DNA from: Knoellia sp. p5-6-4
GTDB taxonomy: Bacteria > Actinomycetota > Actinomycetes > Actinomycetales > Dermatophilaceae
Direction: 5' to 3'
DNA length: 32,000 nucleotides
Assembly: GCF_029222705.1 (NCBI RefSeq)
Contig: NZ_JARGZF010000001.1
Location: forward strand, 88,437-120,436
In this document: one piece after another, positions 1,998 through 25,139 of the stretch
How the letters are laid out: each line of letters starts with the position of its first letter
Numbering within the stretch: the first letter of the stretch is position 1
Notes under the pieces: model-generated
What the model was told of the DNA's origin: nothing
What the model saw: only the letters and a program-made list of their open reading frames with translations
The model's database searches: none
Translations under genes and position numbers: made by a program

Positions 1998-2002
1998 GGC
2001 CG

Positions 2003-3070: not shown

Positions 3071-3172
3071 CCGGCAACCCTAGGCACAGCAGGCCCCCTT
3101 GCGCGGCCTGGACGCCGTACTCCACGTCGCCGACCACCCGTCACCGCGCGCCCTTCGCCGTACGCTCGCCCC

Positions 3173-5103: not shown

Positions 5104-5121
5104 GCTCAGGCTCAGGCTCAG
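5104..5121. repeat. Hexanucleotide tandem repeat (GCTCAG)x3, equal to (TGAGCC)x3 on the coding strand at the gene end
   Basis: Direct reading of 5104-5121. The first TGA on the minus strand is the stop of CDS 5118..6005. Confidence 0.8.
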
Positions 5122-9820: not shown

Positions 9821-10184
9821 CAGGGGCACGCCCGTGGACTCTTGACCTGGGACGGGTACCACGGGTCGTCGTCGTGCTTCCCGCGGGTCGGGGGTGGGGG
9901 TGGCCGTGCGGCCGTCAGGACGCCTCTCGTGAACCCGCTTCAGGGTCGTGCGGGTCACGAGAACAGCGAGCAGGAGGATGCCGCCGAGGATGAGAAGCGG
10001 GTAGCCAGGGCCTGGCAGCCGGATCAGAACGGTACCGAGGATGGTCATCACAGCTCCGGCGACAATAGGCAGTGTGCTCACGGCCCCCAGCCCAAGGCCG
10101 AGGTCATCCCGCGAGGACGCGGTTGGGTGGTCATGCCCCGTCCTCTTGCCCGAGTTTTGGCTCGGACTCAGCGAATTCGACGAG

Positions 10185-10271
10185 CAGGGGTGGGACGGTC
10201 CATCCCTAGGGTGGGTATCCGGTGCGCCGGCCACGGGCGACATTGAGGTTGTTGCCCCACCCTCACCCCTG
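10185..10271 (+). promoter_or_regulatory. Candidate structured 5' leader of the AbfB-CHAP gene
   Basis: CAGGGGTG (10185-10192) pairs with CACCCCTG (10264-10271). AGGGTGGG (10208-10215) pairs with the directly adjacent CCCACCCT (10256-10263). Enclosed hairpins are CCGG-TGCG-CCGG (10219-10230) and GCGACA-N7-TGTTGC (10237-10255). No class assigned. Confidence 0.3.
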
Positions 10272-10286
10272 ATCGGAGCCGACCAC

Positions 10287-11189
10287 ATGCCTTCCTCATT
10301 TCCGACGCTCGCCGCGCGCTCACTGCGCCGCCTCGTCGTCGTTCTCGCCCTCCTGGGCAGCCTCGGCGGTCTTCTGCTCGTCACAGCGCAACCTTCCGCG
10401 GCAGCGGTGCCGTATGACCAGGTCGTGTCGTTCGAGTCCAAGAACTACCCCGGACGCTACATCCGGCACCGCAACTGGCTGGGCGAGATCACGCCCCTGT
10501 GGAGCGGTCTGGACCGGCAGGACGCGACGTTCATCGTGCGCGGCGGCCTCACCGGTGCGGCGGGCACGGTGAGCTTCGAGTCGGCCAACTACCGCGGCCA
10601 CTACCTGCGGCACCAGGGTTGGCGGATCAAGCTGGCGGCGCCCGACGGAAGCCAGCTCTTCAGGCAGGACGCGACGTTCACGGCGCGCGAGCTCGGCTAC
10701 GGAGAGTGGAAGTTCGAGTCGGTCAACTACCCGGGCCACTTCATCCGGCACAGCGGTTTCCAGCTGTGGCTGAACAGGGCCGACGGCAGCGTCCTGTTCG
10801 ACCGTGACTCCACCTGGCACCGCAAGCCCGCCGCGAATGGCACCCAGGGTCGTGGCGAGTGCACCGACTGGGCCCTCTACAAGCGTCCCGACCTGTCTGG
10901 CACGGTCAGTGGCAACGCGGAGCTGTGGACGGAGCAGGCACGCCGTGCTGGGCGCCCGGTGTCCAAGGCCCCGTCCGAGCGCGCCGTGGTGGTGTTCCAG
11001 CGCAGCGTCATGGGCGCCGGTTCGACGACCGGCCACGTCGCCCACGTCGAGCGCGTTGCGCGCGACGCCTACGGCAACGCGACGTCGTTCGTTGTCTCGG
11101 AACAGAACTGGAACGGCAACAGGTATCCCACCAACCGCACCATCCAGGTGAGGGACCTGCCGCCCACCGGCGTGGACTTCATCCGCTGA
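10287..11189 (+). CDS. Secreted protein: signal peptide + AbfB-type beta-trefoil (CBM42-like) carbohydrate-binding domain + CHAP amidase/peptidase domain
   Basis: ATG 10287 lies within track ORF 10041..11189 and is preceded by GGAG. The signal reads RRLVVVLALLGSLGGLLLVTAQPSAAA. Three internal repeats are present: FESKNYPGRYIRH / FESANYRGHYLRH / FESVNYPGHFIRH, each followed by QDATF/RDSTW. The CHAP-like Cys is in GECTDWALYK and the His in TGHVAHVE. Confidence 0.8.
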   Translation: MPSSFPTLAARSLRRLVVVLALLGSLGGLLLVTAQPSAAAVPYDQVVSFESKNYPGRYIRHRNWLGEITPLWSGLDRQDATFIVRGGLTGAAGTVSFESANYRGHYLRHQGWRIKLAAPDGSQLFRQDATFTARELGYGEWKFESVNYPGHFIRHSGFQLWLNRADGSVLFDRDSTWHRKPAANGTQGRGECTDWALYKRPDLSGTVSGNAELWTEQARRAGRPVSKAPSERAVVVFQRSVMGAGSTTGHVAHVERVARDAYGNATSFVVSEQNWNGNRYPTNRTIQVRDLPPTGVDFIR

Positions 11190-11200
11190 TCGCGGCGTCT

Positions 11201-11251
11201 GCGGAACGTCGAAGGAGAGGGCGCCCCCCGGGCGCCCTCTCGCTGTTCCGC
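11201..11251. terminator. Bidirectional stem-loop between the convergent CHAP gene and corA
   Basis: The inner stem is GAGAGGGCGCC (11215-11225) / GGCGCCCTCTC (11231-11241), 11 bp. The outer stem is GCGGAAC (11201-11207) / GTTCCGC (11245-11251). It begins 12 nt after the CHAP gene stop. There is no clear U-tract, which is common in high-GC actinobacteria. Confidence 0.55.
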
Positions 11252-11307
11252 GAGTGGTGCGCACTGCCCTGGTAGACACCCGTGACCTGTGCCCTGAGAC
11301 CGGCGCC

Positions 11308-12327
11308 TCAGATCCAGCCGCGGCGCTTGAAGAGCACGTAGAGGGTGAGGGCCAGCACCGAGATGACCACCACGCTGGCAACGAAACCGGAGGTCTTGCC
11401 GATGCCGGGGTAGGCGACGTTCATGCCGAACCACCCCGTCACCGCAGTCGGGACCGCGATGATCGCTGCCCAGCCCGTCAGCTTCTTCATGACGACGTTC
11501 AACCGGGCGTCCTGCAACGCGATGTTCGTCTCGAAGACCGTCGTGACCATGTCGCGCAGAGACTCGGTCCACTCCGAGGCGCGCAGGACGTGGTCGTACA
11601 GGTCGGTGTACCAGCCGTCGAGCTCGCCCTGCCCCCCGCCGAGGTCGGACTGGTGCCGCATGACGGTGTTGACGACCTCACGCATCGGCAGCACGACCCG
11701 GCGCAGCTGGACCAGCTCCTTGCGCAGCCGGTAGGTCCGCTCCTGGAGCCGACGGGTGCCGCTCTCGGCGAAGAGGGCGTCCTCGAGCAGCTCGATCGCG
11801 TCGTCCATCGCCTGGATGGTGTCGAAGTGCCCGTCGACCACGACGTCGAGCAGGCCGTGCAGGAGGGCGCCGGAGCCCTGCTTGACGAGGTCGGGGTGGT
11901 CACTCCACCGCTGGACCACCTCGTCCATGTCGAACCGGTCGTCGGGGCGCACCGTCACGACACCGCCGGGCAGGACGAACACCGACAGCCTCTGCAGCTC
12001 GAGCCGCGACTCCACCGCTCCGTGCTGCCCGTTGTCGCCCGAGGGGAGGCGGGTGGCGTAGACGGTCACGAAGGTGTGGGTCGCGTGCCGGGTGGCCTTC
12101 GGCCGCTCCGCCGACGCCACGGAGTCCTCGACCGCGTGGGGGTCCAGCAGGAGCTCCTGGGCCAGCTTGTCGAGCCCTGCCCGGCTCGGGCCGCACAGGT
12201 CAACCCACACCAGGCAGTCGTGGTCCTGCAGGTGGTCCGAGAGCTCGTCCAGCGGGAAACCGTCCACGACGTCCCCCGACCGGCGCCACAGCCTGGTGCG
12301 GACGCTGTGCGCGATCTCGGTGGTCAC
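11308..12327 (-). CDS. corA: CorA-family divalent cation (Mg2+/Co2+/Ni2+) transporter
   Basis: The C-terminus has two TM helices and the signature WFGMNVAYPG (GMN motif). I prefer GTG 12327 (VTTEIAHS...) with GGGAG 9 nt upstream. The track start 12345 abuts a hairpin. Confidence 0.85.
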   Translation of the reverse strand: MTTEIAHSVRTRLWRRSGDVVDGFPLDELSDHLQDHDCLVWVDLCGPSRAGLDKLAQELLLDPHAVEDSVASAERPKATRHATHTFVTVYATRLPSGDNGQHGAVESRLELQRLSVFVLPGGVVTVRPDDRFDMDEVVQRWSDHPDLVKQGSGALLHGLLDVVVDGHFDTIQAMDDAIELLEDALFAESGTRRLQERTYRLRKELVQLRRVVLPMREVVNTVMRHQSDLGGGQGELDGWYTDLYDHVLRASEWTESLRDMVTTVFETNIALQDARLNVVMKKLTGWAAIIAVPTAVTGWFGMNVAYPGIGKTSGFVASVVVISVLALTLYVLFKRRGWI

Positions 12328-12347
12328 ACCGGCAGTCTCCCGCACAG

Positions 12348-12414: not shown

Positions 12415-13041
12415 TCAGCGGTGGAGCTCCGGGCCGTGGGCGCAGCACTCGGGCAGCTCGGCGTGCAGGATCTCGATGGCCCGCATGGCCTTGTCGACGA
12501 AGCGGGGCGAGGACTCGATGACGAACCGGCGCGGGTGGGCCGACCACGCCTGCAGGATGCGCTCGTCGATCTCGGCCGCCGCCTCCGGTGACTCCGTGCG
12601 GAGCGGGTTGCGATGGTTGTAGCCGCGTCCCGGGGACGGCGTGCGCAGGTGGATCACGGCGCCGTAGCGCTCCAGCTCGCGCCGCGGGTCGGTGTGCACC
12701 GAGGCCCAGAATTCCGCGGGGTCTCCCGGCCAGTAGGCAACCCCGTCCACCGTCCCACGGTCGCACAGCACGATGGCCGGGCGGTGGGCGTCACCGACCA
12801 CCTCGAGCTCACGCTGCACGTGGAAGATGGCGCGCTGGGAGGCCTGCCGGCAGGCGGGGTCCTCCTCCCTCGGGAAACCGCCCCCGAACACCACACCGGC
12901 GGACTCGGGGAGGATGTGGACGTGGCGGCACACCGCGTGCCGGAGCAGCTCGAGCAGTGCAGTCTTCCCTGCTCCGGGGCCGCCGGTCACCACCACCCGG
13001 CGCGGCGTGTGCTCACTCGTGCAGGAACAGGCGACCGTCAT
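12415..13041 (-). CDS. P-loop NTPase (AAA_28/NadR-like ATPase family) with Cys-rich termini
   Basis: Walker A is VVVTGGPGAGKTALLELL and Walker B-like is AIVLCDRG. SD GGAGGAG precedes ATG 13041. The N-terminus is MTVACSCTSEH and the C-terminus ELPECCAHGPELHR. Confidence 0.8.
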   Translation of the reverse strand: MTVACSCTSEHTPRRVVVTGGPGAGKTALLELLRHAVCRHVHILPESAGVVFGGGFPREEDPACRQASQRAIFHVQRELEVVGDAHRPAIVLCDRGTVDGVAYWPGDPAEFWASVHTDPRRELERYGAVIHLRTPSPGRGYNHRNPLRTESPEAAAEIDERILQAWSAHPRRFVIESSPRFVDKAMRAIEILHAELPECCAHGPELHR

Positions 13042-13084: not shown

Positions 13085-15250
13085 TCACTCGGTGCGTCGC
13101 ACGGCCAGCACGGCGACGTCGTCGTCGTGGGACGGCTCCCGCAACCGGTCCACGAGGTCGGCGAGTCCGTCGGCCACGCCGCGGCCGACGAGGTCGGGCA
13201 TCGCGTCGTGGACCCGCTTCATCCCCTGGTCGATGTCCTCGTCGCGCCGCTCGATGAGCCCGTCGGTGAACGTCAGCAAGGTGTCTCCAGCCCGGAAGGG
13301 CACCCGCGACTGCCTCCGGCGCTGCCGCCCGGCGCCCAGCGGTGCCCCGTCTGCGTAGGGCAGCTGCTCGGTGCTGAGGTCGCCGCGCAGGATCACCCCG
13401 GGCGGGTGGCCCGCGTTGGCGATCATCAGCTCGTCGTGGCGGGGGTTGAGCACCATGTAGAGAAGCGTGACCAGCTGCTCGGACCCGTAGCGATCGAGCA
13501 TCAGGTCCAGGCTGCGGATGACCGCCTCGGGCGAGGGGTCGACGGCGGCGTACGCACGCACGGCCGACCGCATCTGCGCCATGGCGGCGGCGGCGCGGAC
13601 CCCCCGGCCCATGACGTCGCCCACGAACACGGCCAGCCGGCCGCCGCCGATCGGGATGGCGTCGTAGAAGTCGCCGCCGACCTCGGTGCGGCCCGAGGGG
13701 CTGTAGTGGCTCGCGATCTCCCATGCCGGGAGGCTGGGCATGGCTTCGGGCAGCACAGCCTGCTGCAGCTGCACCGCGGCCACCAGCGTCTGGCTGTGCA
13801 GCTCGGCGTTGTCGATCGCCACGGCGGCCCGGCGGGCGAGGTCCTCGGCGAACGCGAGGTCCGACGGCCCGAAGTGCCGTTCGGACTCCGCGGCCGCCCA
13901 GGTCATGACTCCCAGCACCCTGCCCCGGGCGGACAGCGGCACGGTGAGGGCGCTGCAGAGCCTGAGGTCGCGCGCGATCCGGAGGTGTTCCTCGTCCTTG
14001 GCGGAGGCGACGAGCATCTCGTCCGTGACCTCCGGGACGAGCAGGCTCGTGCCCGACCGGATGACCTGCCACGGACCAACCGGGGCGTCCGGGTCCGCGG
14101 GGTAGCGGTCCTGGAGGGACCGGGCCAGCTCGACCTTGGCCGGGTCCACGTGGGCGACGGCCAGCCGGTTCAGGCGGGTGCCGTCGACGACGTCGATGCC
14201 GCACCAGTCGGCGAACGTGGGGACGGCCAGCTGGGCCACGCGCGCCAAGGTGGTCTCGTAGTCGAGGCTGCTGGCGAGCTCGGCCGAGGCGTCAGCCAGG
14301 AACTGGAGCTTGGCGGTCTGGGCGGCCACCTCCTCGGACACGCCGATCCGCTCGAGCGCCTGGGCGCACGTGTCGGCGACGATCTCGAGGAACTCCAGCT
14401 CGGCTGCGTCGACGGGACGGCGGCCCTGGAAGGACAGGGCGATCGCGCCGAGGGTCCGGTCAGACGCCCTCAACGGCAGGGCGACGATCGACTGGTCGGG
14501 TACCGGGGTGTCCCCGATGACGTCGGGGAACCGCCGCGTCAGCTCCGCCGCCCCGACCACGGTGACCACCCGGCCGGTGCGCACGGCCTCGCTGGACGGC
14601 GTTCCGATGGCCAGCGGGTAGCGCCTCCACCGACGCGCGTCGCTCTCCTGGAGGCCCCGCAGGCCGATGATGCGCAGCGCGTCGTCGCCGTCGCGCAGGG
14701 TCAGGGTCGCGATCGGCGCCCCGACGGCGTCTGCCGCGTGGGTGATGATGATGCGCTCCACCGCGTCCACCGACTCGGCCACGGCCAGCTCGGAGGTGAC
14801 GCGGGCCAGCCGGGCCAGGCTGCTGGCGGGGCCCAGCCGGCCGTCCCTGTCCACATCCCCCTGCGCCGGCCCGTCGATCGCGGTCGCGACGCAGAGCATC
14901 CCGACGACCGCCCCGTCCCGCCACATCGGAGTGAGGGTGACCCGGCGCTGCACCGGACCAGCAGCAGTGAGAAGCGCCGCGGTTCCTGTCCACGGCGTCC
15001 CTGCCAGCACCTGTTCGGCGACCGCCACGAGGCGCGCGTGCTCGGCCCCGTCGAAGACCTCGCTGGGGAGGTCAGCGCCCTCGAGCCGGGCGGAGGACGC
15101 CGGTGCCCCGACGGTCCCTCGGGCCGCGGCGTTCGCGTACGTGACCCGACTGGAGCGGTCGACGAGCAGAGCCGCGTCGCCGAAGGCGTCGAGCAGGCCC
15201 GGGTCGGCAGGCCAGCAGTCACGCCGTTCGCCACTCACAGCGCACATCAT
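13085..15250 (-). CDS. PAS-GAF-GAF-PP2C (SpoIIE/RsbU-type) serine phosphatase
   Basis: Start at ATGATG 15250 inside track ORF 13085..15928. The order is a PAS-like N-terminus (LLVDRSSRVTYANAAA), two GAF-like segments, then the PP2C core EVGGDFYDAIPIGGGRLAVFVGDVMGRGVRAAAAMAQ ... DTLLTFTDGLIE ... DDDVAVLAVRR. Confidence 0.85.
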   Translation of the reverse strand: MMCAVSGERRDCWPADPGLLDAFGDAALLVDRSSRVTYANAAARGTVGAPASSARLEGADLPSEVFDGAEHARLVAVAEQVLAGTPWTGTAALLTAAGPVQRRVTLTPMWRDGAVVGMLCVATAIDGPAQGDVDRDGRLGPASSLARLARVTSELAVAESVDAVERIIITHAADAVGAPIATLTLRDGDDALRIIGLRGLQESDARRWRRYPLAIGTPSSEAVRTGRVVTVVGAAELTRRFPDVIGDTPVPDQSIVALPLRASDRTLGAIALSFQGRRPVDAAELEFLEIVADTCAQALERIGVSEEVAAQTAKLQFLADASAELASSLDYETTLARVAQLAVPTFADWCGIDVVDGTRLNRLAVAHVDPAKVELARSLQDRYPADPDAPVGPWQVIRSGTSLLVPEVTDEMLVASAKDEEHLRIARDLRLCSALTVPLSARGRVLGVMTWAAAESERHFGPSDLAFAEDLARRAAVAIDNAELHSQTLVAAVQLQQAVLPEAMPSLPAWEIASHYSPSGRTEVGGDFYDAIPIGGGRLAVFVGDVMGRGVRAAAAMAQMRSAVRAYAAVDPSPEAVIRSLDLMLDRYGSEQLVTLLYMVLNPRHDELMIANAGHPPGVILRGDLSTEQLPYADGAPLGAGRQRRRQSRVPFRAGDTLLTFTDGLIERRDEDIDQGMKRVHDAMPDLVGRGVADGLADLVDRLREPSHDDDVAVLAVRRTE

Positions 15251-15318
15251 CACAGTCTGCTCGCTGCCCGAACAGCATTTCGCGGAATCCGTAGGACCGA
15301 GGCTCCCGAGTCGCGGCC

Positions 15319-16107
15319 TCAGGCCAGGACGGCTGCCGGCGCCGGGAACGGCGTGCTGTTGACCACGGCGAGCTGCCGCAGGGTCTGGCGGCACAGGGCA
15401 GCCAACCCGCGACGGTCGAGCCGCTCGCACACCCATTCCCAGTGGAGCGAGCACCAGTCGCCCGCCGAGACGCCCCCGGCGAGCCCGAGGCCGTCGACCC
15501 GCAGGAGGGCCCGCTCCTCGCGCTCCTCGCCCAGGTGCAGGCGACGGCCGTCCCAGCACAGCGGCCGCGACCGGACGACCGCCTCCGGCCCCCGGACCTC
15601 CATCACGTGTCCCCAGCGCACGCGGCAGCGGTCGAGCACGTGCAGCGGCTCGTCCACCCGGCCCTCGCGGAGCAGCCCCAGCCAGGGGTAGACACCGAAG
15701 ACGTGGAACGAGTGGTGCGGCACCGCACCGGCAGGCACCGCGTCGACCAGCCTCGGCCAGGAACGCCGGCCGGCACGGTCGCGGAAACGCGCCTCGAGCG
15801 AGTCCCCGAGCAGGCGTGGACCCACCCGGTCCAGCAGCTCGTTCCCGACCCAGTAGGCCTCGACGACGCGCGCGTCGAGGGGGTCGCCGATCCGGTTGGC
15901 TGCGGCGATGAGCTCGAGGTAGGGCCACGCGCCCTCGAACCCGCGGGCCAGCCGTCGCAGGTCCGGGTCGTCGACCCCGGCCGCGACCTGCTCGAGCAGC
16001 TGCTGCGCCGCGTCGGGCCCGCAGTAGCCGAGCGCGTTCGGCGGGTAGGCGTACGCCGCGAACCGCAGGGCCCCGTGCAGCCCCGACGCTGCGCTACCCG
16101 CCGGCAC
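15319..16107 (-). CDS. DUF6390-like protein of unknown function with a HypC-like C-terminal half
   Basis: GTG 16107 lies inside track ORF 15319..16302 and overlaps the eamA-like stop by 14 nt. The N-terminal motif is LRFAAYAYPPNALGYCGPD. The C-terminal segment CRVRWGHVMEVRGPEAVVRS...GDWCSLHWEWVCERLD parallels the HypC encoded at 17023..17313. Confidence 0.65.
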   Translation of the reverse strand: MPAGSAASGLHGALRFAAYAYPPNALGYCGPDAAQQLLEQVAAGVDDPDLRRLARGFEGAWPYLELIAAANRIGDPLDARVVEAYWVGNELLDRVGPRLLGDSLEARFRDRAGRRSWPRLVDAVPAGAVPHHSFHVFGVYPWLGLLREGRVDEPLHVLDRCRVRWGHVMEVRGPEAVVRSRPLCWDGRRLHLGEEREERALLRVDGLGLAGGVSAGDWCSLHWEWVCERLDRRGLAALCRQTLRQLAVVNSTPFPAPAAVLA

Positions 16108-17026
16108 GGACCGTCCCGCTCTCAGGCACGGGCCGCGCCGCGCCCCTCCAGCCGAGCCACACCGCCGCCGCACCCCCGAGCAGCAGTGTGGCGAGCCACA
16201 ACGCCTGGGGCGCCAGCGCGGTGCCGTTGACGGCGGCGCCCAGGCCGGCTGTGACCGGTGCCGCGAGCACCAGCACGGCCGTGACGTCGACAGCTTGCGC
16301 ACGGGCGAGGGCGGCGAACCACGAGGCGACGTAACCGGCGAGCAGCAGACCGGTGACCAGAACCCACCCGAGCTGCTCCCGGGTCATCGACCCCAGGGCA
16401 CCCGCCTGGCCGGTGACCGCGAGCCAGGCCACGAGGGCCACCGAGCCCAGGCCCATCCGTGCCACGCCGACCGTCCACGACGACACGTCGTCCAGCAGCC
16501 ACTTGGCGACGACGACCTCCACCGACCACAGCAGCGTCGCGGCGAGGATCATGACGCCGGCGGCGCCGAGCTCGCCGGGCAGGCCGCCGGCCAGGCCCAC
16601 CTGCCCGACGACCAGCAGGCCGATGGCGACCCAGTGGCCCCACTGCAGGCGTTCCTTCAGCAGTGGAAGGGCCAGCAGCGCCACCCAGAGCACGAGGGTC
16701 TTGTGGATGAAGGCGGCCTGGGGCGACGACGCCCGGCTGAGCCCCTCGAAGAACAGCACGAACGGCACGCTGCCGCCGATCACCCCGACCGCCGCGAGGG
16801 CCAGCCACCGGCCGCGCGTGCGCGGCACGGTCAGGCGCGCCCCGGCTCGGGAGCCCAGCCCGACGACGGCGAGCAGCACGGCCGCCGCCACGAGGTTCTT
16901 GGCTGTCGTGTACACCGTGGCGTCGTCGAAGGCCTTGACGCCGTAGGCGTTCACGAAGACCGAGAAGCCGCTGATCGCGGCCGTGACGAGCGCGAGCAGT
17001 ATGCCGGTGCGGCGGGTGGTGTTCAT
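16094..17026 (-). CDS. EamA/DMT-superfamily transporter (10-TM type)
   Basis: 310 aa and highly hydrophobic, with two EamA-like halves (GILLALVTAAISGFSVFVNAYGVK...; ILAATLLWSVEVVVAKWLL...). ATG 17026 overlaps the hypC stop as ATGA. Confidence 0.85.
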   Translation of the reverse strand: MNTTRRTGILLALVTAAISGFSVFVNAYGVKAFDDATVYTTAKNLVAAAVLLAVVGLGSRAGARLTVPRTRGRWLALAAVGVIGGSVPFVLFFEGLSRASSPQAAFIHKTLVLWVALLALPLLKERLQWGHWVAIGLLVVGQVGLAGGLPGELGAAGVMILAATLLWSVEVVVAKWLLDDVSSWTVGVARMGLGSVALVAWLAVTGQAGALGSMTREQLGWVLVTGLLLAGYVASWFAALARAQAVDVTAVLVLAAPVTAGLGAAVNGTALAPQALWLATLLLGGAAAVWLGWRGAARPVPESGTVRAGG

Positions 17027-17313
17027 GGCTCCCTCATCTGTTCGGTGGGCTTAGCCTGTGCGGCGGTCCCTGCCTCTTCTGTGGTCTCTGCGAGCCGCGA
17101 CGGTGCGGTGGACCGCAGCGCTGCGGCCTCGTACGCCTCCTGCGGCGACAGCCGGCGCAGGGCGAAGCCGGAGTGGCACAGCAGCCAGTCGCCCGGAGCG
17201 ACGGCCCCGTCGAGGGTCAGCAGCGACACCGTCGCGGTGCGCACGGACGACCGCACCACGGCGGTGCCCACGTCCGGGGCCTCGAGCACCTCGGCCAGCT
17301 CACCCAGGCACAC
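17023..17313 (-). CDS. hypC: Hydrogenase assembly chaperone HypC/HupF family
   Basis: The GTG start at 17313 gives (M)CLGELAEVLEAPDVGTAVVRSSVRTATVSLLTLDGAVAPGDWLLCHSGFALRRLSPQEA. It has the N-terminal Cys2 and the GDW..H.GFA motif. Confidence 0.8.
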   Translation of the reverse strand: MCLGELAEVLEAPDVGTAVVRSSVRTATVSLLTLDGAVAPGDWLLCHSGFALRRLSPQEAYEAAALRSTAPSRLAETTEEAGTAAQAKPTEQMREP

Positions 17314-17851
17314 GGGCGGCTCCTTCCGGCGTGGTGGTCCCCTCCGACGCCTCCCGCACGACTGCGAGGACGCGGTCGACGGCGGTCGGCACGGCGGCGG
17401 CGACGGCGGGCGACAGTGGCGCGCCGTGGTCGAACGACGCCGCCTCGACACCCACCAGCACCACCCGGTCGGGCAGCCGGCGCAGCGCCCTGGCCAGCTC
17501 GACGGCGGAGGCCAGGCCGAACGCGTGGGTGCCACCGCGACCGGTCCGTCCCCAGGCAGACTCGCGCAGCCGCTCACCCAGCGCGCCCGTCTCGAGCACC
17601 GTCAGGGTGCCGGGTTCCGAGCCGGAGCGGACGGCGTCGACCACGACGGCGAGCTCGTGGCCCGACCACAGCTCGACCAGGTCGGTGGGGTCCTCGTGTG
17701 CGACGACGTCCACGCCCGGCACGTGGCACGCCGCGACCCCTCGCGCCACGACGACCCCCACGGCGTCATCGCCCCGGTGCGGGCTGCCCAGCCCCACCAC
17801 GAGCGGTCGGGAGGTGACCGGCCCCGTCGGAGCACCCCTCACGCCCGTCAT
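17300..17851 (-). CDS. [NiFe]-hydrogenase maturation endopeptidase (HycI/HoxW/FrhD family)
   Basis: ATG 17851 overlaps the large-subunit stop as ATGA. Sequence includes LVVGLGSPHRGDDAVGVVVAR...VVAHEDPTDLVELW...AVVVDAVRSG...PGTLTVL...THAFGL. Confidence 0.8.
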   Translation of the reverse strand: MTGVRGAPTGPVTSRPLVVGLGSPHRGDDAVGVVVARGVAACHVPGVDVVAHEDPTDLVELWSGHELAVVVDAVRSGSEPGTLTVLETGALGERLRESAWGRTGRGGTHAFGLASAVELARALRRLPDRVVLVGVEAASFDHGAPLSPAVAAAVPTAVDRVLAVVREASEGTTTPEGAARVPG

Positions 17852-19158
17852 CCCCGGTCCACCGTGAGGTCGAGGAAGTGGGTGGCACAGGAGATGCACG
17901 GGTCGTAGTTGCGGATGGCCTGCTCGCAGCGGTGCTGCAGCGCGTGGTCGTCGAGCTGGGACCAGCTCTGCACCATGGTGCGCAGGTCGGCCTCGACACT
18001 CGGCTGGTTCTGCGAGGTCGGCGGCACGATCTGCGCGTCGCGGATGATGCCCTCGTCGTCGAGGACGTAGCGGTGGAACAACACCCCTCGGGGCGCCTCG
18101 CTGGCGCCGAAGCCCTCGCCCGCCCGGGGCGGGACGGGCACGCTGGCCGGGCCGCTGCCCGTCCAGCCGTCGATGATGCGCAGCGCCTCGTGGTAGGCCT
18201 CCACCAGCTCGACGGCCCGGACGATGATCGAGCGGAACGGGTTGCGGCAGGTGTCGCCGAGCCCGGCCTCGCGGGCCGCCTCCCGGGCCACGTCGCTGAG
18301 CCGGTCGGCGTTCAGGGAGTAGCGGGCCAGCGGGCCCACGACGTAGGGGTCGGGTGAGCCGTCGAGGCGCGCGTGCAGGGCGTTGGAGTGGGGGACGTGG
18401 AACTCCTCGATGTGCTTCGTGAAGTCGCGCACGGCGAAGGCCCCGCCGGAGGACGTGACGACGCTCCCGGCCTCGATGGGGTACCCGCTCTCGGCCCGCA
18501 GTGCGAGGTACTCGTAGGGCTGCTCCAGGTCGGGGAACTCGAACCCGGCCACGAGCTTCACGGTCTGCACCGCCTCGTCGAGGGCCCGCTGCAGCCGGGG
18601 CCGCACGGCCCGCAGCTCCTCGCGGGTGGGGTACCGGTAGAACCCGCCGACCTTGACGTTGACGGGGTGCACCGATCGACCGCCGACGGTGTCCATGAGG
18701 TCGTTGCCGGCCTTCTTGATCCGCAGGCCCCGCTCGACCACGTCGGGGTGGTCGGCAGCCATCTCGACCGCGCCGTCGTAGCCGAGGAAGTCGGGCGCGT
18801 GCAGGAGGAAGACGTGCAGGGCGTGGCTCTCGATCCACTCGCCGCAGTACAGCAGCCGCCGCATGAGCCGGATCTCCTCCGGCACCTCCACCCCGCAGGC
18901 GTCCTCGACCGCCCAGCACGAGCTCATCTGGTAGGCCACCGGGCAGATCCCGCAGATGCGCGCGGTGATGTCCGGCGGCTCCGTGTGGGCGCGGCCGCGC
19001 AGGAACGCCTCGTAGAACCGGGGCGGCTCGTAGATGCGCAGCTGCACGTCGGTGACCGTGCCGTCGCGGTACTCGATGTGCATCGCCCCCTCGCCCTCGA
19101 CCCGCGCCAGGGTGCCGACGTGCATCACCTGGCCGCCGTCGGTGAGCTTGTGGCTCAT
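17848..19158 (-). CDS. [NiFe]-hydrogenase large (alpha) subunit, group 3b type
   Basis: Start at ATG 19158 (MSHKLTDGG...) inside track ORF 17848..19935. The N-terminal Ni-binding motif is [10 protein letters not shown] and the C-terminal motif is DPCISCATH, followed by a short cleavable tail FLDLTVDRG. Confidence 0.9.
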
Positions 19159-19997
19159 GCGTCCTCCCCCTCTCCCGCCGGTGGCCCTCCCTGCTCGTGC
19201 CGCTCGCTCTCCCGGCGGAACGGCTCCGAGGCCGCGTTGAAGGTCCGGAAGATGCGCACTACCTCGGGCTCGCTCATCCCGAGCTCTCTGAGCCCGTGGG
19301 CGATCGAGACGGTGTTGGGTGTGTCCTGGGGGCCGAAGCAGCCGTAGCAGCCGCGGTCGAAGCTCGGGCACAGGGCACCGCACCCTGCCTGGGTGACCGG
19401 CCCGAGGCACGGCGTCCCGTGGGCCACGGTCACGCAGACGTTGCCCCGCCGCTTGCACTCGACGCACACGCTGTGCGACGGGATCCGCGGCTTGCGGTCC
19501 TGGATCGACGCGGCGAGCACCTCGAGCAGCTGGCGCTTGTTGATCGGGCAGCCGCGCAGCTCGAAGTCGACGGAGACGTGCGCCGAGATCGGCGTGGAGC
19601 GCGACAGCGTCGACAGGTACTCCGGGTGGGCGTAGACGATCGAGCGGAACTCGGCGACGTCGCCGAAGTTGCGCAGCGCCTGGATCCCGCCGGCCGTGGC
19701 GCACGCGCCGATGGTGATCAGCCGGCGCGACACCTGGCGCACGTGCTGGATGCGCTCGAGCTCCTCCGGGGTCGTGATCGAGCCCTCGACCAGCGAGACG
19801 TCGTAGGGCCCCTCCACCACCGCGCGGGTGGCCTCGGGGAAGTAGGCGATCTCCACCTCGCCCGCGAGGCGGAGCAGCTCGTCCTCGCAGTTGAGCAGCG
19901 TGAGCTGGCAGCCGTCGCAGGAGGCGAACTTCCACACGGCGAGCGTCGGCCGCGTACGTTCGGTGGCCGTTGCGTCGGATCGGTCGGTGACGGTCAT
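19155..19997 (-). CDS. [NiFe]-hydrogenase small (delta) subunit, group 3b type
   Basis: ATG 19997 (MTVTDRS...). Fe-S cysteines occur in [16 protein letters not shown] and [12 protein letters not shown]...[27 protein letters not shown]. The stop overlaps the large-subunit start as ATGA. Confidence 0.9.
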
Positions 19998-19999
19998 GG

Positions 20000-20863
20000 C
20001 TAGAGCTCCGCCCGGGCCATCAGGGGCTCGAGGACGTCGTAGGTGAGCACCGGGCCGTCCACGCAGAGGAAGTACTCGCGCAGCTGGCAGTGGCCGCAGA
20101 GGCCGACCCCGCACTTCATGTTGCGCTCCATCGACAGCCGCAGCCGCGCCGGGGGGACGCCGCGGGCGCGCAGGGCCATCGCGGCATACCGCATCATGAC
20201 CTCCGGCCCGCACACGAGGGCCAGCGTGTTCACGGCGTCGAAGCCACCCCGCTCCACCAGCTGGGTGACCAGGCCGACCCGCCCCTGCCAGGCGTGCTGT
20301 CCGTTGTCGACGGTGACCTGCACGTCGACGGCGTGGTCGGCGGCCCAGCGGCGCAGGTCGTCACCGAAGAGGATGTCCTCGGGGGTGCGGGCGCCGTAGA
20401 GCAGCAGCACGCGGCCGTAGGACGCGCGGTCGGCGCACACCTCGAGGACGGCCGGGCGCAGGGGTGCCAGGCCGATGCCGCCGGCGACGAAGACGACGTC
20501 GCCACCGCGTCCGGACGACACCTCCCAGCCGGTGCCGAACGGACCTCGTATGCCGAGCTCGGCGCCGGGTGCGGCGTGCACCAGCGCCCGCGTGACCGCG
20601 CCGACGTTCCGAATCGTGTGCTCGAGGACCGCGGGCCGGGCCGGGTCGCCGCTGATGGAGATCGGCGCCTCCCCCGCGCCGAACGCCTGCATCATCGTGA
20701 ACTGGCCGGCGGCGAACGGCATCGGCACCCCGTCGACCGGCTCGAGCACGAGCGTCCAGGTGTCGCGGGTGTCCTGCCGGTGGCGCCGGACGACGAACGG
20801 CCGGGGCAGGAAGGGGTCGCGCGGGCGCGCTGCCCGGGAGCCGGCACCGGCCACCGCCGTCAT
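20000..20863 (-). CDS. Hydrogenase gamma subunit: FAD/NAD(P)-binding oxidoreductase with a C-terminal 2Fe-2S motif (PyrK/HydG-like)
   Basis: ATG 20863 (MTAVAGAG...). It carries [28 protein letters not shown] and C-terminal [12 protein letters not shown]. Confidence 0.85.
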
Positions 20864-21321
20864 ACCGGGGCTCCGTAGACGTCGAGCAGGCGGATGCGCG
20901 CGGAGTGCAGCCTGGTGGACATCACCTGCACCACCCGCTGCAGCATCGCGTAGCCGACAGCCGGGTCGGTGTCGCACTTGTCGCGCAGGCAGGCGCCGTC
21001 GAAGGCGATGGCGCTGGTCTCCTCGGTGGCCCGCGCGTCGAAGAGCCAGCGGTAGGGCGGCACGAGCCACGACCAGCCCACGACGTCGTCGGCGTGGGCG
21101 CTGTCGACGACCACCGGCGAGCCTGCGGGCGCATGCACCTCGAGGCTGACCCGGCCGTGCCGGATCACGTAGAAGGTGTCCGCCGGCTCGCCCTCGTGGA
21201 ACAGGTGCTGGCCCGGGTGGAAGTGCACGTTGACGGCGCACCCCGCGACCAGCGCGACGAGCGGCTCCGGCAGACCCGCGAAGAAGGGGTGCTGGGGAAG
21301 GTACTCGGCGATGGTCTGCAC
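20860..21321 (-). CDS. Stand-alone cyclic-nucleotide-binding (cNMP/CAP effector) domain protein, no DNA-binding domain
   Basis: 153 aa. Sequence: [52 protein letters not shown]...[37 protein letters not shown] 21321 has GGAGA 8 nt upstream. The stop overlaps the gamma-subunit start as ATGA. Confidence 0.8.
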
Positions 21322-21334
21322 GGCGGTCGTCTCC

Positions 21335-22549
21335 TCACTCGGGCGCCGGGTCGGGCGGGCTCAGGGGTGCCGGGAGGTTCGAGCCGCGCACCCCGCGCAG
21401 AGCGGCCGCCTCCTCGGTGATGTCGATCCCGGCCGGGCACCAGGTGACACAGCGGCCACAGCCGACGCACCCCGAGGACCCGAACTGGTCGTGCCAGGAA
21501 GCGAGCTTGTGGGTCATCCACTGGCGGTAGCGGGACCGGGTCGAATCGCGGACGGTGCCGCCGTGGATGTAGGAGAAGTCCGCGTTGAAGCACGAGTCCC
21601 AGACGCGGTGGCGGTCGGCGGACTCCCCGCTGAGGTCGGAGACGTCCTCCACCGTGGTGCAGAAGCACGTGGGGCACACCATGGTGCAGTTGGTGCAGGC
21701 CAGGCACCTCGAGGCGACGTCGTCCCACCGGGGGCTGTCGACGCTGGCGTAGAGCAGGTCGCGGATCCCGTCGGTGTCGAGCCGGCGCCCCATCCGCTGC
21801 GCCGCCTGGTCGGACACGGCACCTGCCGCGGCCAGGTCGCCCGCGGCGGCCGCCGTCGCCCCGATCTCGTCGAGCAGGGCCCCACCCCGCTCGCTGCCGA
21901 CCTCGACGACGAACCGGTGCTCCGGTTCCAGCAGCTCGGTGAGGGACAGGTCGAACGGCGCCCCGCGGCCCTGCTCGGGCCGCGGTCCGGTGCCCATCGA
22001 CACACAGAAGCAGGTGCCGCCGGGGTCGGAGCAGGCGACCGCGATGACGAAGGCCCCCTCGCGGCGCTGGGCGTAGTGCGCGTCGGTGAAGCCGCGGCCC
22101 GTGAGCACGGTGTCGTGGATGCCGACCGCGCTGAGGTCGCAGGAGCGCACGCCGAGCAGGGCAGTGGGCCGCTGGTCGGCGCCGTCCTCGTCCTCCACGT
22201 GGGTCCCGCCGGTCGGGCTGCCCGGCGCGCCACCGACCTCGAAGCCGGTGCCGCCCGCCGTGCGCTGCCCCCGCCACAGCAGCTCGTCGGTCGGGAAGAA
22301 CACCGGTTTGGCCGACTGCGCCCCGGCGGCGAACCCGAAGAGTGCCTCGTCGTCCCGACGGCGCAGGCGATATCGGCCGGGCTCCTGGTCGTCGCCCCAG
22401 CCGCGCGGCAGGTCGGCCACCGCGGTGATCTCCGCGTTGACGACGGCACCGCCTCGCACCGTGGGGCCCATCACGCGGTAGCCGCGCGCGACGAGGGCGT
22501 CGAGCAGGGACTGCAGGCCGGTCTCGTCGATCAGCCGTGTGTCCACCAT
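21335..22549 (-). CDS. Hydrogenase beta subunit: 4Fe-4S cluster protein (HydB/AsrA-like)
   Basis: 404 aa. Cys clusters are [16 protein letters not shown] and [13 protein letters not shown], plus [14 protein letters not shown]. Confidence 0.85.
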
Positions 22550-24994: not shown

Positions 24995-25139
24995 CGAATC
25001 CCATCTCGCAGCCTTGCCCTGCCGCCTCGAACGCTACTCCCGACCCGAGATGTCCGCCCGGGATAGCGCCGCCGGTGGCAGAGTGGGCGGTGCGACCACG
25101 GGCTCGCCCGTGTGCGGACCGAGGCACGGGGAAGGGAGC

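What the first reader, a model, noticed from the sequence alone, without database searches (positions are those of the whole stretch)
15319..17026. EamA transporter and DUF6390-like protein hard-wired to the end of a group 3b hydrogenase maturation operon
Seen: the hypC stop and the EamA start share ATGA (17023-17026), and the EamA stop and the next gene's GTG overlap by 14 nt (16094-16107). Both genes are therefore translationally coupled to hydrogenase structural and maturation genes, not merely adjacent. Established: canonical [NiFe] maturation needs HypABCDEF plus an endopeptidase. A DMT/EamA exporter and a DUF6390 protein are not part of that set, and hypA/B/D/E/F are absent from this window. 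Inference: these two proteins may form an undescribed accessory module, for example export or import of a metal ligand or thiol metabolite plus a chaperone-like partner for this hydrogenase class.
Basis: partly seen in the sequence, partly recalled or inferred. Interest (0 to 1): 0.7.

Follow-up and report, generated by a model that had tools for sequence, protein, structure and literature searches.

The report
Hydrogenase-linked permease and HypC-like partner
The last two genes of this hydrogenase operon, a membrane permease and an uncharacterised protein with a domain like the iron-handling chaperone HypC, recur together beside hydrogenase genes in many soil bacteria and probably supply or sense a metal the enzyme needs.

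Summary
On the minus strand, nine genes (hyhB, a cNMP-binding gene, hyhG, hyhS, hyhL, protease, hypC, eamA, duf6390) are packed with gaps of -14 to +13 nt. These include the ATGA overlap at 17023-17026 and the 14-nt overlap at 16094-16107.

The pairing is not chance. Of 80 species-level loci that encode DUF6390, 38 have a group-3b large subunit. In 35 of those 38, EamA sits directly upstream of DUF6390, and the small gaps or overlaps are kept.

New findings:
- DUF6390 has two domains. The helical N-domain has no detectable relatives. The C-terminal OB domain is HypC-like and keeps the Cys and His that align with HypC's Cys2 and conserved His.
- It follows hypC in 67 of 80 loci.
- It also occurs in 1h-like and 2a-like hydrogenase clusters.
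- A transporter lies within a few genes in 64 of 80 loci. The family varies (EamA, three ABC types), and DUF6390 subfamilies track the transporter type.
- It is found fused to EamA and to GntR, PadR, XRE or MarR DNA-binding domains.

Best reading: DUF6390 is a cytoplasmic Cys/His ligand-binding partner that links a dedicated transporter to HypC-dependent cofactor assembly. The ligand is probably a metal, but Ni versus Fe is unresolved. No paper in the held library describes this. The function is inferred, not shown.

The parts
21335..22549 (-). hyhB-like Fe-S subunit (404 aa), first gene of the operon
   Evidence: Pfam Fer4_22 7e-33. The best NCBIfam matches are sulfhydrogenase beta subunits ShyB/HydB, below their cut-offs.
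20860..21321 (-). Stand-alone cyclic-nucleotide-binding domain protein (153 aa) inside the operon
   Evidence: Pfam cNMP_binding 1.9e-14. It is conserved at this position in most group-3b loci (32 loci in the gene-family clustering).
20000..20863 (-). hyhG-like FAD/NAD(P)-binding subunit (287 aa)
   Evidence: Pfam NAD_binding_1 and DHODB_Fe-S_bind. NCBIfam matches a hydrogenase gamma subunit at 1.2e-50.
19155..19997 (-). hyhS small subunit (280 aa)
   Evidence: Pfam Oxidored_q6 2.6e-22. The best NCBIfam matches are HydD/ShyD.
17848..19158 (-). hyhL [NiFe] large subunit (436 aa), group-3b-like
   Evidence: Pfam NiFeSe_Hases. The best NCBIfam match is ShyA at 293 bits, below the 700-bit cut-off. 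The sequence contains RICGIC near the N-terminus and DPCISCATH near the C-terminus.
17300..17851 (-). Hydrogenase maturation endopeptidase (183 aa)
   Evidence: Pfam HycI 2.8e-12. TIGR00072 scores 99.5 bits, above its cut-off.
17023..17313 (-). hypC (96 aa, GTG start, N-terminal (M)CLG)
   Evidence: Pfam HupF_HypC 3.4e-12, 46.8 bits against a 28.5-bit cut-off. It overlaps the protease stop by 14 nt.
17023..17026 (-). ATGA junction: hypC stop overlaps the EamA start
   Evidence: Read directly from the sequence. The same -4 or -1 nt junction is available in 30 of 32 related loci.
16094..17026 (-). EamA/DMT permease (310 aa, about 10 hydrophobic segments)
   Evidence: Pfam EamA 6.7e-25 with two repeats. 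A hydropathy scan gives about 10 segments. It sits directly upstream of DUF6390 in 39 of 80 loci.
16094..16107 (-). 14-nt overlap of the EamA stop (TAG 16096-16094) with the DUF6390 GTG start (16107-16105)
   Evidence: Read directly from the sequence. Related loci allow only very short spacing: the median distance from the EamA stop to the conserved DUF6390 N-terminus is 23 nt.
15628..16107 (-). DUF6390 N-terminal domain (residues 1-160), all-helical, with invariant C29, H132, H135 and the motifs YAYPPN, DxRVVxxYW and YPW
   Evidence: AlphaFold2 model with pLDDT 89.5 and pTM 0.90. Invariant columns come from a 51-sequence alignment. No relative was found in the PDB or in other Pfam families.
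15319..15627 (-). DUF6390 C-terminal HypC-like OB domain (residues 161-262 plus stop), with invariant C161, H222 and C227
   Evidence: hhalign against a HypC alignment gives probability 93.6%, E 2e-7. The top three PDB sequence hits are all HypC. The top Foldseek hits are HypC 2z1c_B (E 7.4e-4) and 3vyr_A.
15251..15318 (-). 68-nt spacer after the operon, before a PAS-GAF-GAF-PP2C phosphatase gene
   Evidence: This is the largest gap in the gene series. A hairpin follows the stop codon but is no more stable than shuffled sequence (z = 0.65). The downstream genes are not conserved in related loci.

Best explanation
eamA and duf6390 are the last two cistrons of a nine-gene group-3b-type [NiFe]-hydrogenase operon. 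Together they form a conserved accessory module.

DUF6390 is the constant part. It is a soluble cytoplasmic protein with a helical N-domain of no known relatives and a C-terminal OB domain homologous to HypC. That domain keeps a Cys and a His that align with HypC's Cys2 and conserved His. Those two residues are linked to iron binding in HypC (from my own recollection of the literature, not checked here). Further invariant Cys and His residues lie in both domains.

I propose that DUF6390 binds a ligand, most probably a metal ion or metal chelate (Ni or Fe), at a Cys/His site. It would work at the cytoplasmic face of the EamA permease. Its role would be either to take the imported species and pass it towards HypC-dependent active-site assembly, or to sense whether supply is sufficient and adjust transport. 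In other lineages the same domain is wired to ABC importers, fused directly to the EamA permease, or fused to DNA-binding domains as the effector-binding part of one-component regulators in hydrogenase or transporter operons.

Shown here: operon geometry, conservation, domain homology, the link to hypC and to transporters, and the fusions. Inferred: ligand binding, the identity of the ligand, the direction of transport, and physical contact with HypC or EamA.
For: - Operon packing and overlaps, with no internal promoter-like or terminator-like site on the coding strand.
The N-domain finds 922 representatives of 50%-identity clusters.
- Synteny: 35 of 38 group-3b loci carry EamA directly upstream of DUF6390. 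Independent database gene calls show the same nine genes with overlapping junctions (L084).
- Correlated divergence of EamA, DUF6390 and HyhL, r = 0.91-0.95.
- hypC is adjacent in 67 of 80 loci, and in fusion contexts too.
- A transporter lies within a few genes in 64 of 80 loci: EamA, an ABC system with SBP_bac_11 plus a double permease, or an ABC system with Peripla_BP_2 plus FecCD. An SBP_bac_5 ABC system appears next to the PadR and XRE fusions.
- DUF6390 subfamilies follow transporter type rather than hydrogenase class.
- A hypC-DUF6390-ABC module stands alone with no hydrogenase within 10 kb (L081).
- HypC-like domain: hhalign 93.6%; PDB sequence hits are HypC, and Cys161 and His222 align to HypC's Cys2 and conserved His; Pfam HupF_HypC is hit by 4 of 24 C-domains; the Foldseek top hits are HypC.
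- Fusions: EamA-DUF6390 is seen in an NCBI genome assembled from a metagenome and in an independent contig. GntR-DUF6390 heads an ABC operon and is seen on 9 contigs. The PadR-DUF6390 cluster has 15 members and lies upstream of an ABC system and a 1h-like operon. The DUF6390-MarR cluster has 17 members and follows hypC in a 2a-like cluster. The invariant Cys and His residues are retained in the fusion proteins.
- The solved binding proteins nearest to the ABC binding proteins are mostly iron or metal-chelate binders: Fe(III) binding proteins, iron-complex binders, Ni-binding CeuE, and the NikA family.
Against: - There is no experimental or direct computational evidence that DUF6390 binds a metal. 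I could not inspect model coordinates to see whether the invariant Cys and His residues cluster.
- EamA has no conserved Cys or His, and its substrate cannot be read from sequence. Characterised DMT members are mostly metabolite carriers (from my own knowledge).
- All ABC components score far below curated cut-offs, and their nearest solved relatives also include binders of 2-aminoethylphosphonate, pyridoxal phosphate, peptides and glutathione. A non-metal substrate is therefore possible.
- A NicO nickel permease is also present in seven of the 1h-like loci, six of which also carry the ABC-II system. That argues against nickel for this ABC type.
- About 8-10 of 80 loci show neither hypC nor a transporter.
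- The M. smegmatis and Frankia 3b clusters are described in the literature without this module.
- Fusion to a DNA-binding domain fits a sensor better than a hand-over chaperone, so the two halves of the proposal may not both be true.
Confidence: 0.5

Rival explanations
1. DUF6390 is only a second HypC-type chaperone. It would be a functional analogue of HupF/HoxL that holds or protects the large-subunit precursor during maturation in aerobes. The neighbouring transporter would be co-regulated for general metal supply and have no direct link to DUF6390.
For: The C-terminal domain is HypC-like and retains the Cys and His. The gene sits directly after hypC in 67 of 80 loci. It occurs with hydrogenase types typical of aerobic soil bacteria: 3b, 1h-like and 2a-like.
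Against: The Cys is internal rather than N-terminal, and a 160-residue N-domain precedes the OB domain. DUF6390 subfamilies track transporter type rather than hydrogenase class. A natural EamA-DUF6390 fusion exists. Fusions to four families of DNA-binding domain are hard to reconcile with a pure large-subunit chaperone. DUF6390 plus an ABC system occurs without a hydrogenase within 10 kb.
Confidence: 0.2
2. DUF6390 is purely a regulatory sensor. It might sense redox state, O2 or iron through an Fe-S cluster held by its Cys residues, or sense the loading state of HypC. It would control expression or activity of the hydrogenase and its transporter. EamA would carry a non-metal metabolite, such as a thiol like cysteine.
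For: The domain is repeatedly fused to GntR, PadR, XRE and MarR DNA-binding domains in real, multi-contig genes. Three Cys and three His are invariant. One protein joins the DUF6390 N-domain to HEAT repeats and a cNMP-binding domain. In a minority of loci it lies next to a cysteine-desulfurase-like gene or SufE. Characterised EamA relatives export cysteine and O-acetylserine (from my own knowledge).
Against: The window protein has no DNA-binding domain. A pure transcription or redox sensor does not explain why importers with binding proteins from three ABC families, whose nearest solved relatives are mostly metal or metal-chelate binders, replace EamA. It also does not explain the retention of HypC's aligned Cys and His.
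Confidence: 0.22
3. EamA and DUF6390 are passenger genes, or an independent two-gene cassette, that happened to land at the 3' end of the operon and have no role in hydrogenase biology.
For: The genes downstream of DUF6390 are not conserved. A few DUF6390 loci have unrelated neighbours. The module is not mentioned in the published descriptions of the model 3b clusters.
Against: The synteny holds across several phyla down to 46% EamA identity, with the overlaps preserved. Divergence of the three proteins is correlated. DUF6390 is linked to hypC in 67 of 80 loci and to three hydrogenase classes. It contains a HypC-like domain.
Confidence: 0.03

Closest known systems
HypC/HybG [NiFe]-hydrogenase maturation chaperones (Pfam PF01455; structures 2z1c, 3vyr, 2ot2)
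   Same: The C-terminal roughly 100 residues of DUF6390 form an OB barrel followed by a helix. HypC is its best match by profile, by PDB sequence search and by fold search. The GDWxxxH motif is kept, and a Cys aligns with HypC Cys2. The gene lies next to hypC.
   Different: The Cys is internal (residue 161) rather than the processed N-terminus. The barrel carries an extra beta-hairpin insertion. A 160-residue helical domain with its own invariant Cys and His precedes it. The window protein does not reach the Pfam HypC threshold. DUF6390 occurs in addition to a canonical hypC, not in place of it.
HupF/HoxL, the second HypC-like chaperones of oxygen-tolerant hydrogenases in Rhizobium and Cupriavidus (from my own knowledge)
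   Same: Both are extra HypC-related proteins encoded in hydrogenase clusters of aerobes alongside the canonical HypC.
   Different: HupF/HoxL has the HypC domain at the N-terminus, with Cys2, followed by a C-terminal extension. DUF6390 has the opposite domain order. It is also linked to transporters and fused to DNA-binding domains, neither of which is known for HupF.
Metal transporters encoded in hydrogenase clusters (HoxN/HupN NiCoT, HupE/UreJ, NikABCDE; from my own knowledge)
   Same: In both cases a membrane transporter is co-transcribed with hydrogenase structural and maturation genes. Some DUF6390 loci carry Nik/Opp-type or CeuE-like ABC systems.
   Different: EamA belongs to the DMT superfamily. 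To my knowledge no nickel or iron transporter from that superfamily has been characterised. No known hydrogenase-linked transporter has an obligatory cytoplasmic partner with a HypC-like domain.
DMT/EamA carriers such as E. coli EamA (YdeD, cysteine and O-acetylserine exporter) and YddG (from my own knowledge)
   Same: Two EamA repeats and about ten hydrophobic segments.
   Different: No solved structure matches by sequence at E <= 0.01. The subfamily studied here sits next to DUF6390 in every hydrogenase-linked locus examined. In a Candidatus Kerfeldbacteria genome it is fused to DUF6390.
Metal-sensing regulators of hydrogenase-related transport, such as NikR controlling nikABCDE (from my own knowledge)
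   Same: GntR-, PadR- and XRE-DUF6390 proteins sit at the head of, or inside, ABC importer operons next to hydrogenase genes. This is the layout expected of a substrate-responsive regulator.
   Different: The sensor fold is unrelated. The window protein has no DNA-binding domain. Metal binding is untested.
HucE/HhyE NifU-Rieske proteins of mycobacterial hydrogenase operons (PMC6883350)
   Same: They are another lineage-specific accessory protein encoded in actinobacterial uptake-hydrogenase operons and required for activity. They are present in the 1h-like and 2a-like clusters that end in hypC-DUF6390.
   Different: They are an unrelated family, are absent from the 3b operon of the window, and are proposed to act in electron transfer rather than in transport or sensing.

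Membership tests
DUF6390 (Pfam PF19927) | Full-length match above the gathering score | tested here: met
   322.7 bits against a 25-bit cut-off, E 1.9e-96. Protein residues 11-252 match profile positions 4-240 of 244.
EamA/DMT superfamily (Pfam PF00892) | Two EamA repeats, each of about five transmembrane helices | tested here: met
   88.4 bits against a 28.2-bit cut-off, with two matched stretches. A 19-residue hydropathy scan finds about ten hydrophobic segments.
HypC/HupF family (PF01455), applied to the DUF6390 C-terminal domain | Reaches the curated Pfam score | tested here: not met
   The window protein has no HupF_HypC hit at E <= 0.01. Only 4 of 24 homologous C-domains hit it, with a best E of 7.6e-4. 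The homology is remote: hhalign probability 93.6%.
HypC/HupF family, applied to the DUF6390 C-terminal domain | OB-fold barrel followed by a C-terminal helix that superposes on HypC structures | tested here: met
   For the domain-only model (pLDDT 87.9), the Foldseek top hits are 2z1c_B (E 7.4e-4, probability 1.00) and 3vyr_A (2.4e-3). E. coli HypC 2ot2 ranks 7th with probability 0.99.
HypC/HupF family, applied to the DUF6390 C-terminal domain | Essential Cys as the first residue after Met removal (free N-terminal Cys2) | tested here: not met
   The aligned Cys is residue 161, in the middle of the polypeptide. It is invariant but cannot be N-terminal.
HypC/HupF family, applied to the DUF6390 C-terminal domain | Conserved His in the GDWxxxH strand | tested here: met
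   H222 in GDWCSLHW is invariant in 51 sequences and aligns with the His of PGDWVIVH in T. kodakarensis HypC.
Group 3b [NiFe]-hydrogenase (the operon that carries the module) | Four-subunit set: beta Fe-S, gamma FAD/NAD(P), delta small subunit and alpha large subunit | tested here: met
   Pfam and NCBIfam assign all four. The best named relatives are P. furiosus-type sulfhydrogenase subunits.
Group 3b [NiFe]-hydrogenase | Large subunit assigned to the class by a curated model or classifier | tested here: inconclusive
   The best NCBIfam matches are ShyA (293 bits) and HydA (250 bits), both below their 700/880-bit cut-offs. The RICGIC and DPCISCATH metal-site motifs are present. No HydDB-type classifier was available.
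Known nickel or iron transporter families (NiCoT/NicO, NikABCDE, FbpABC), applied to the window's EamA | Sequence membership in one of these families | tested here: not met
   Only EamA (Pfam) and a weak TIGR00950 match (30 bits against a 230-bit cut-off) were found. Metal transport by this EamA is an inference from context.
One-component transcription regulators with a DUF6390 effector domain | A DNA-binding helix-turn-helix domain on the same polypeptide | tested here: not met
   The window protein is DUF6390 only. GntR, PadR, XRE and MarR fusions occur in other lineages.
Translationally coupled operon | A single transcript and ribosome re-initiation at the overlapping stop and start codons | not testable with these tools
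   The geometry is consistent with coupling (overlaps of 4 and 14 nt). There is no internal promoter-like or terminator-like site. No RNA or ribosome data were available.

The most novel reading that the evidence does not exclude
DUF6390 is a new kind of sensor built on the HypC fold. It would read the state of the [NiFe]-cofactor assembly line, either by binding the same metal species as HypC through the retained Cys and His, or by pairing with the adjacent HypC. It would feed that signal back onto metal import: directly, by gating the EamA or ABC transporter, and in the fused forms by controlling transcription. That would be a dedicated supply-and-demand control circuit for hydrogenase maturation in aerobic H2-oxidising bacteria.
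Probability: 0.25. Interest if true: 0.85.

Novelty: new variant of a known kind. Interest (0 to 1): 0.7.

Why it matters
[NiFe]-hydrogenases of groups 1h, 2a and 3b allow soil Actinomycetota, Chloroflexota and related bacteria to live on trace H2 and to dispose of reductant in hypoxia. How these aerobes obtain and control the metals for the active site is poorly understood. To my knowledge the source of the active-site iron handed to HypC/HypD is still unknown.

This work points to a widespread family (at least 593 species, 922 clusters at 50% identity) that had no assigned function. It contains a HypC-like domain and sits next to hypC. It is also wired to a dedicated transporter or to DNA-binding domains. 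That gives concrete candidates for knockouts, metal-binding assays and operator-binding assays.

It would also give the DUF6390 family a first functional context, and could reveal a metal-related role for a DMT permease.

Tried and rejected
- N-domain relatives: the profile found no PDB or Pfam relatives. Four of 20 sequences gave a weak zf-HYPF hit (E 0.047), which I treated as noise.
- Naming: NCBIfam has no model for DUF6390.
- Substrate from the ABC components: all hits are far below cut-offs. The nearest solved binding proteins are mixed: Fe(III), 2-aminoethylphosphonate, pyridoxal phosphate, iron complexes, Ni-CeuE, peptides, NikA, glutathione. The question stays unresolved.
- Substrate from EamA: the conserved residues include no Cys or His, and no solved homologue matches by sequence.
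- Apparent HypC-DUF6390 fusion P0477: rejected as a frameshift artefact, because its ends are low-complexity out-of-frame sequence.
- 'SELF' HypC hit in L075: this was an artefact of my overlap test. hypC there is a separate, overlapping ORF.
- Internal promoter or terminator: none on the coding strand. The hairpin after the duf6390 stop is no more stable than shuffled sequence.
- Gene calling: my first GC3-based gene caller was too strict for genomes of 64-66% GC and was redone.
- Literature: DUF6390 gave 0 papers. EamA with NiFe and hypC gave 0 papers. The Frankia and M. smegmatis papers do not mention the module.
- Unknown 394-aa protein in the PadR-DUF6390 operon: no relative in the PDB.
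- Not done: a reciprocal survey centred on EamA or HyhL beyond close relatives.
Full report
1. What is in the window

The window has about 73% G+C. Its closest relatives are Intrasporangiaceae/Dermatophilaceae genomes such as Pedococcus cremeus, with 91% DUF6390 identity and 95% HyhL identity.

Codon-position GC analysis and ORF listing define nine consecutive genes on the minus strand. Pfam and NCBIfam identify them as follows.

| Gene | Coordinates | Identification |
|---|---|---|
| hyhB-like | 22549-21335 | Fe-S subunit |
| cNMP | 21321-20860 | 153-aa cyclic-nucleotide-binding protein |
| hyhG-like | 20863-20000 | FAD/NAD subunit |
| hyhS | 19997-19155 | small subunit |
| hyhL | 19158-17848 | large subunit; best named relatives are sulfhydrogenase ShyA/HydA |
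| protease | 17851-17300 | maturation endopeptidase |
| hypC | 17313-17023 | HypC chaperone |
| eamA | 17026-16094 | EamA permease |
| duf6390 | 16107-15319 | DUF6390, E 1.9e-96 |

The junction gaps are +13, -4, +2, -4, -4, -14, -4 and -14 nt. A 68-nt spacer then precedes a PAS-GAF-GAF-PP2C phosphatase gene.

No promoter-like or terminator-like site lies on the coding strand within the last three genes. No hypA, hypB, hypD, hypE or hypF was found among the called genes that were scanned, which is most but not all of them.

The overlaps are typical of high-GC operons and do not prove coupling by themselves.

2. Is the pairing more than chance?

It returned 80 loci at 53-91% identity. They come from Actinomycetes, Acidimicrobiia, Gaiellaceae, Chloroflexota, Dormibacterota and one genome labelled Steroidobacteraceae.

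tblastn with the window's proteins gave these results:
- 38 loci have a 3b-type large subunit.
- 35 of those 38 have EamA immediately upstream of DUF6390, usually with the full nine-gene order.
- In total 39 of 80 loci have EamA directly upstream of DUF6390 on the same strand.

The pair stays together even when it is divergent from the hyh operon (L024, L055).

The spacing is also conserved. A hypC-stop to EamA-start overlap of -4 or -1 nt is available in 30 of 32 loci. The median distance from the EamA stop to the conserved DUF6390 N-terminus is 23 nt.

Independent database gene calls show the same nine overlapping genes (L084). Identity of EamA, DUF6390 and HyhL to the window proteins co-varies across 35 loci (r = 0.91-0.95). 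This is what is expected if the genes are inherited as one unit.

3. What DUF6390 is

Across 51 sequences at 48-87% identity, the invariant residues include C29, H132, H135, C161, H222 and C227. The motifs YAYPPN, DxRVVxxYW, YPW and CRxRWG are also invariant.

AlphaFold2 gives a confident two-domain model with pLDDT 89.5 and pTM 0.90. Residues 12-161 are helical. A beta barrel at 163-230 is followed by helices.

The C-terminal domain is HypC-like by four independent tests:
- Profile-profile alignment to a HypC alignment gives 93.6% probability, E 2e-7.
- A profile search of PDB sequences returns HypC as the top three hits. C161 aligns to HypC Cys2, and H222 aligns to the His of GDWxxxH.
- Pfam HupF_HypC is hit by 4 of 24 C-domains.
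- For a domain-only model, the top Foldseek hits are HypC 2z1c and 3vyr, with E. coli HypC ranked 7th.

A HypC HMM also hits the DUF6390 ORF itself in two loci.

It is not a member of the HypC family in the strict sense. The curated score is not reached, and the Cys is internal rather than N-terminal.

The N-domain has no detectable relative in the PDB or Pfam. The protein has no hydrophobic segment, so it is probably cytoplasmic.

4. DUF6390 is the constant element; the transporter varies

I called and clustered genes in the 80 loci and annotated them with Pfam.

Where DUF6390 is not in a 3b operon, it typically closes a 1h-like cluster. The gene order there is small subunit, 597-aa large subunit, NifU-Rieske, DUF5947, DUF6084, protease, HypA, HypC, DUF6390.

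It also lies next to an ABC importer of one of two types:
- Type I has an SBP_bac_11 binding protein, a fused double permease and an ATPase.
- Type II has a Peripla_BP_2 binding protein, a FecCD permease and an ATPase.

These appear in co-directional, convergent or divergent orientation.

Counts across the 80 loci:

| Context | Loci |
|---|---|
| 3b + EamA | 34 |
| 1h + ABC-II | 12 |
| ABC-I only | 10 |
| EamA only (cut contigs) | 4 |
| 3b without EamA | 4 |
| 1h only | 4 |
| 1h + ABC-I | 3 |
| ABC-II only | 1 |
| neither | 8 |

These counts come from my own gene calls. They undercount EamA slightly relative to the tblastn result in section 2. L021, for example, has EamA by tblastn.

hypC is adjacent in 67 of 80 loci. 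A hypC-DUF6390-ABC module can stand alone, with no hydrogenase within 10 kb (L081).

A rough neighbour-joining tree shows that DUF6390 subfamilies follow the transporter type rather than the hydrogenase class. L047 and L072 sit next to 3b operons, lack EamA, and fall in the ABC-linked clade.

5. Fusions

A full-library search with the N-domain found 922 cluster representatives. Among the best 150 are several fusion proteins (Pfam; sequences).

| Fusion | Evidence that it is real | Genomic context |
|---|---|---|
| GntR-DUF6390 | 9 contigs | First gene of an ABC-I operon; a [NiFe] small-subunit gene lies 8 kb away |
| PadR-DUF6390 | 15-member cluster, dozens of contigs | Upstream of an SBP_bac_5 ABC system and a 1h-like operon |
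| XRE-DUF6390 | 2-member cluster | Between hypC and a Nik/Opp-type ABC system, next to a hydrogenase |
| DUF6390-MarR | 17-member cluster, NCBI accessions from Pseudonocardiales | Directly after hypC at the end of a 2a-like cluster |
| EamA-DUF6390 | NCBI MBI5465924.1 (Candidatus Kerfeldbacteria) plus an independent contig | Next to a [NiFe] large subunit |

The invariant Cys and His residues are retained in these proteins.

Fusion to four unrelated families of DNA-binding domain is how effector-binding domains typically behave. The fusion to EamA argues that DUF6390 works physically at the transporter. From my recollection of the YddG structure, both termini of ten-helix DMT carriers are cytoplasmic, which would place the fused domain in the cytoplasm.

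6. Mechanism

Shown: operon structure, conservation, a HypC-like domain with the retained Cys and His, linkage to hypC, to three hydrogenase classes and to four transporter families, and the fusions.

Inferred: DUF6390 binds a ligand at a Cys/His site and couples a dedicated transporter to HypC-dependent cofactor assembly. It would do this either as an acceptor that hands the ligand over or as a sensor that adjusts transport. In the fused forms it would adjust transcription.

A metal or metal chelate is the most economical common substrate. The solved relatives nearest to the ABC binding proteins are mostly Fe(III), iron-complex, Ni-CeuE or NikA-family proteins. Hydrogenase clusters are also known to carry metal importers.

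Iron is slightly favoured for three reasons:
- DUF6390 resembles HypC.
- The type-I binding proteins resemble Fe(III) binding proteins.
- A NicO nickel permease is present in seven of the 1h-like loci, six of which also carry ABC-II.

Nickel is favoured by the Nik-type systems and by the analogy with NikR.

Non-metal substrates cannot be excluded. All transporter hits fall below curated cut-offs, and EamA has no conserved Cys or His. I put 0.5 on the combined statement.

7. Comparison with what is known, and novelty

No paper in the held library mentions DUF6390, or EamA together with NiFe and hypC. The M. smegmatis Hyd3 cluster is described as five genes, msmeg_3931-3927 (PMC2799521). Frankia synton-4 is described as hyhGB-hupSLD (PMC11879354). 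Work on HucE/HhyE notes further uncharacterised proteins in these operons (PMC6883350).

The nearest known kinds are:
- HypC/HybG and the HupF/HoxL paralogues.
- Nickel transporters in hydrogenase operons.
- Metal-responsive regulators such as NikR.

The module resembles each of these in part and belongs to none of them. I class it as a new variant of a known kind, namely a hydrogenase accessory or metal-supply module. It includes an undescribed use of the HypC fold.

8. Verdict

The module is real and undescribed, but it is broader than group 3b. DUF6390, not EamA, is its core, and a sensing role is at least as likely as a chaperone role. Interest is 0.7.

Noticed in passing
window 20860-21321 (-): A stand-alone 153-aa cyclic-nucleotide-binding protein sits between hyhB and hyhG. 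It is conserved at this position in most 3b loci (32 loci in the gene-family clustering). The five-gene M. smegmatis Hyd3 cluster as published does not list it. One metagenomic protein (P0407) joins a DUF6390 N-domain to HEAT repeats and a cNMP-binding domain.
   Followed up: partly
window 13085-15250 (-), 22695-23660 (+), 24173-24994 (-), 5118-5849 (-): The operon is flanked by regulators of the partner-switching type: a PAS-GAF-GAF-SpoIIE/PP2C phosphatase directly downstream, a MEDS-HATPase_c_2 protein divergent upstream, and two further HATPase_c_2 proteins. These neighbours are not conserved in related loci.
   Followed up: partly
window 25050-27968 (+): A 972-aa P-type cation ATPase lies 2.5 kb upstream of the hyh operon. 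[quoted passage not shown]
   Followed up: no
window 11308-12345 (-) and 12415-13041 (-): A CorA-family divalent-cation channel and an AAA_28 ATPase lie on the same strand, three to four genes downstream of duf6390. CorA proteins can carry Ni and Co, but this neighbour is not conserved elsewhere.
   Followed up: no
window 395-4000: This is a small cluster resembling an alkylresorcinol/type III polyketide pathway. It has an FAD monooxygenase (395-1450), an ICMT-family methyltransferase (1443-1997), a type III PKS (2003-3070) and, divergently, a UbiA prenyltransferase (3212-4000).
   Followed up: no
window 10001-12000; gene 10407-11189 (+): G+C drops locally to about 68%, against about 73% elsewhere. 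The region contains a secreted-looking protein with AbfB and CHAP domains.
   Followed up: no
window 17300-17313: The protease stop and the hypC GTG start overlap by 14 nt. This is the same overlap length as at the eamA/duf6390 junction.
   Followed up: yes
L040-L080, 1h-like clusters (e.g. L041:11845-13287): A conserved 480-aa protein family with no Pfam or NCBIfam match (my family f13, 18 loci) sits between DUF6084 and the protease in the 1h-like hydrogenase clusters.
   Followed up: partly
L088:2466-3650 and L097:2972-4156: A 394-aa protein with no Pfam or PDB relative lies between PadR-DUF6390 and the SBP_bac_5 ABC genes, directly upstream of a 1h-like hydrogenase operon.
   Followed up: partly
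L048, L056, L058 (Pseudonocardiales); L093: In a minority of loci DUF6390 has no hypC or transporter neighbour. Instead it is divergent from a class-V aminotransferase (cysteine-desulfurase-like), with GCS2 and SurE nearby. L093 has SufE close to the DUF6390-MarR gene. This may hint at sulfur or Fe-S chemistry.
   Followed up: partly
L082:14930-19803: In a Chloroflexota contig the hydrogenase-hypC-DUF6390-ABC cluster is followed directly by RuBisCO large and small subunits, CbbX-like AAA, FBPase and phosphoribulokinase. This suggests H2-driven CO2 fixation.
   Followed up: no
DUF6390 residues 18-31 (window 16017-16056): The invariant motif RYAYPPNxLGYCGP gives weak hits to the HypF zinc-finger model (zf-HYPF, E 0.047, 4 of 20 sequences). 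This is probably noise, but it is curious in a hydrogenase context.
   Followed up: partly
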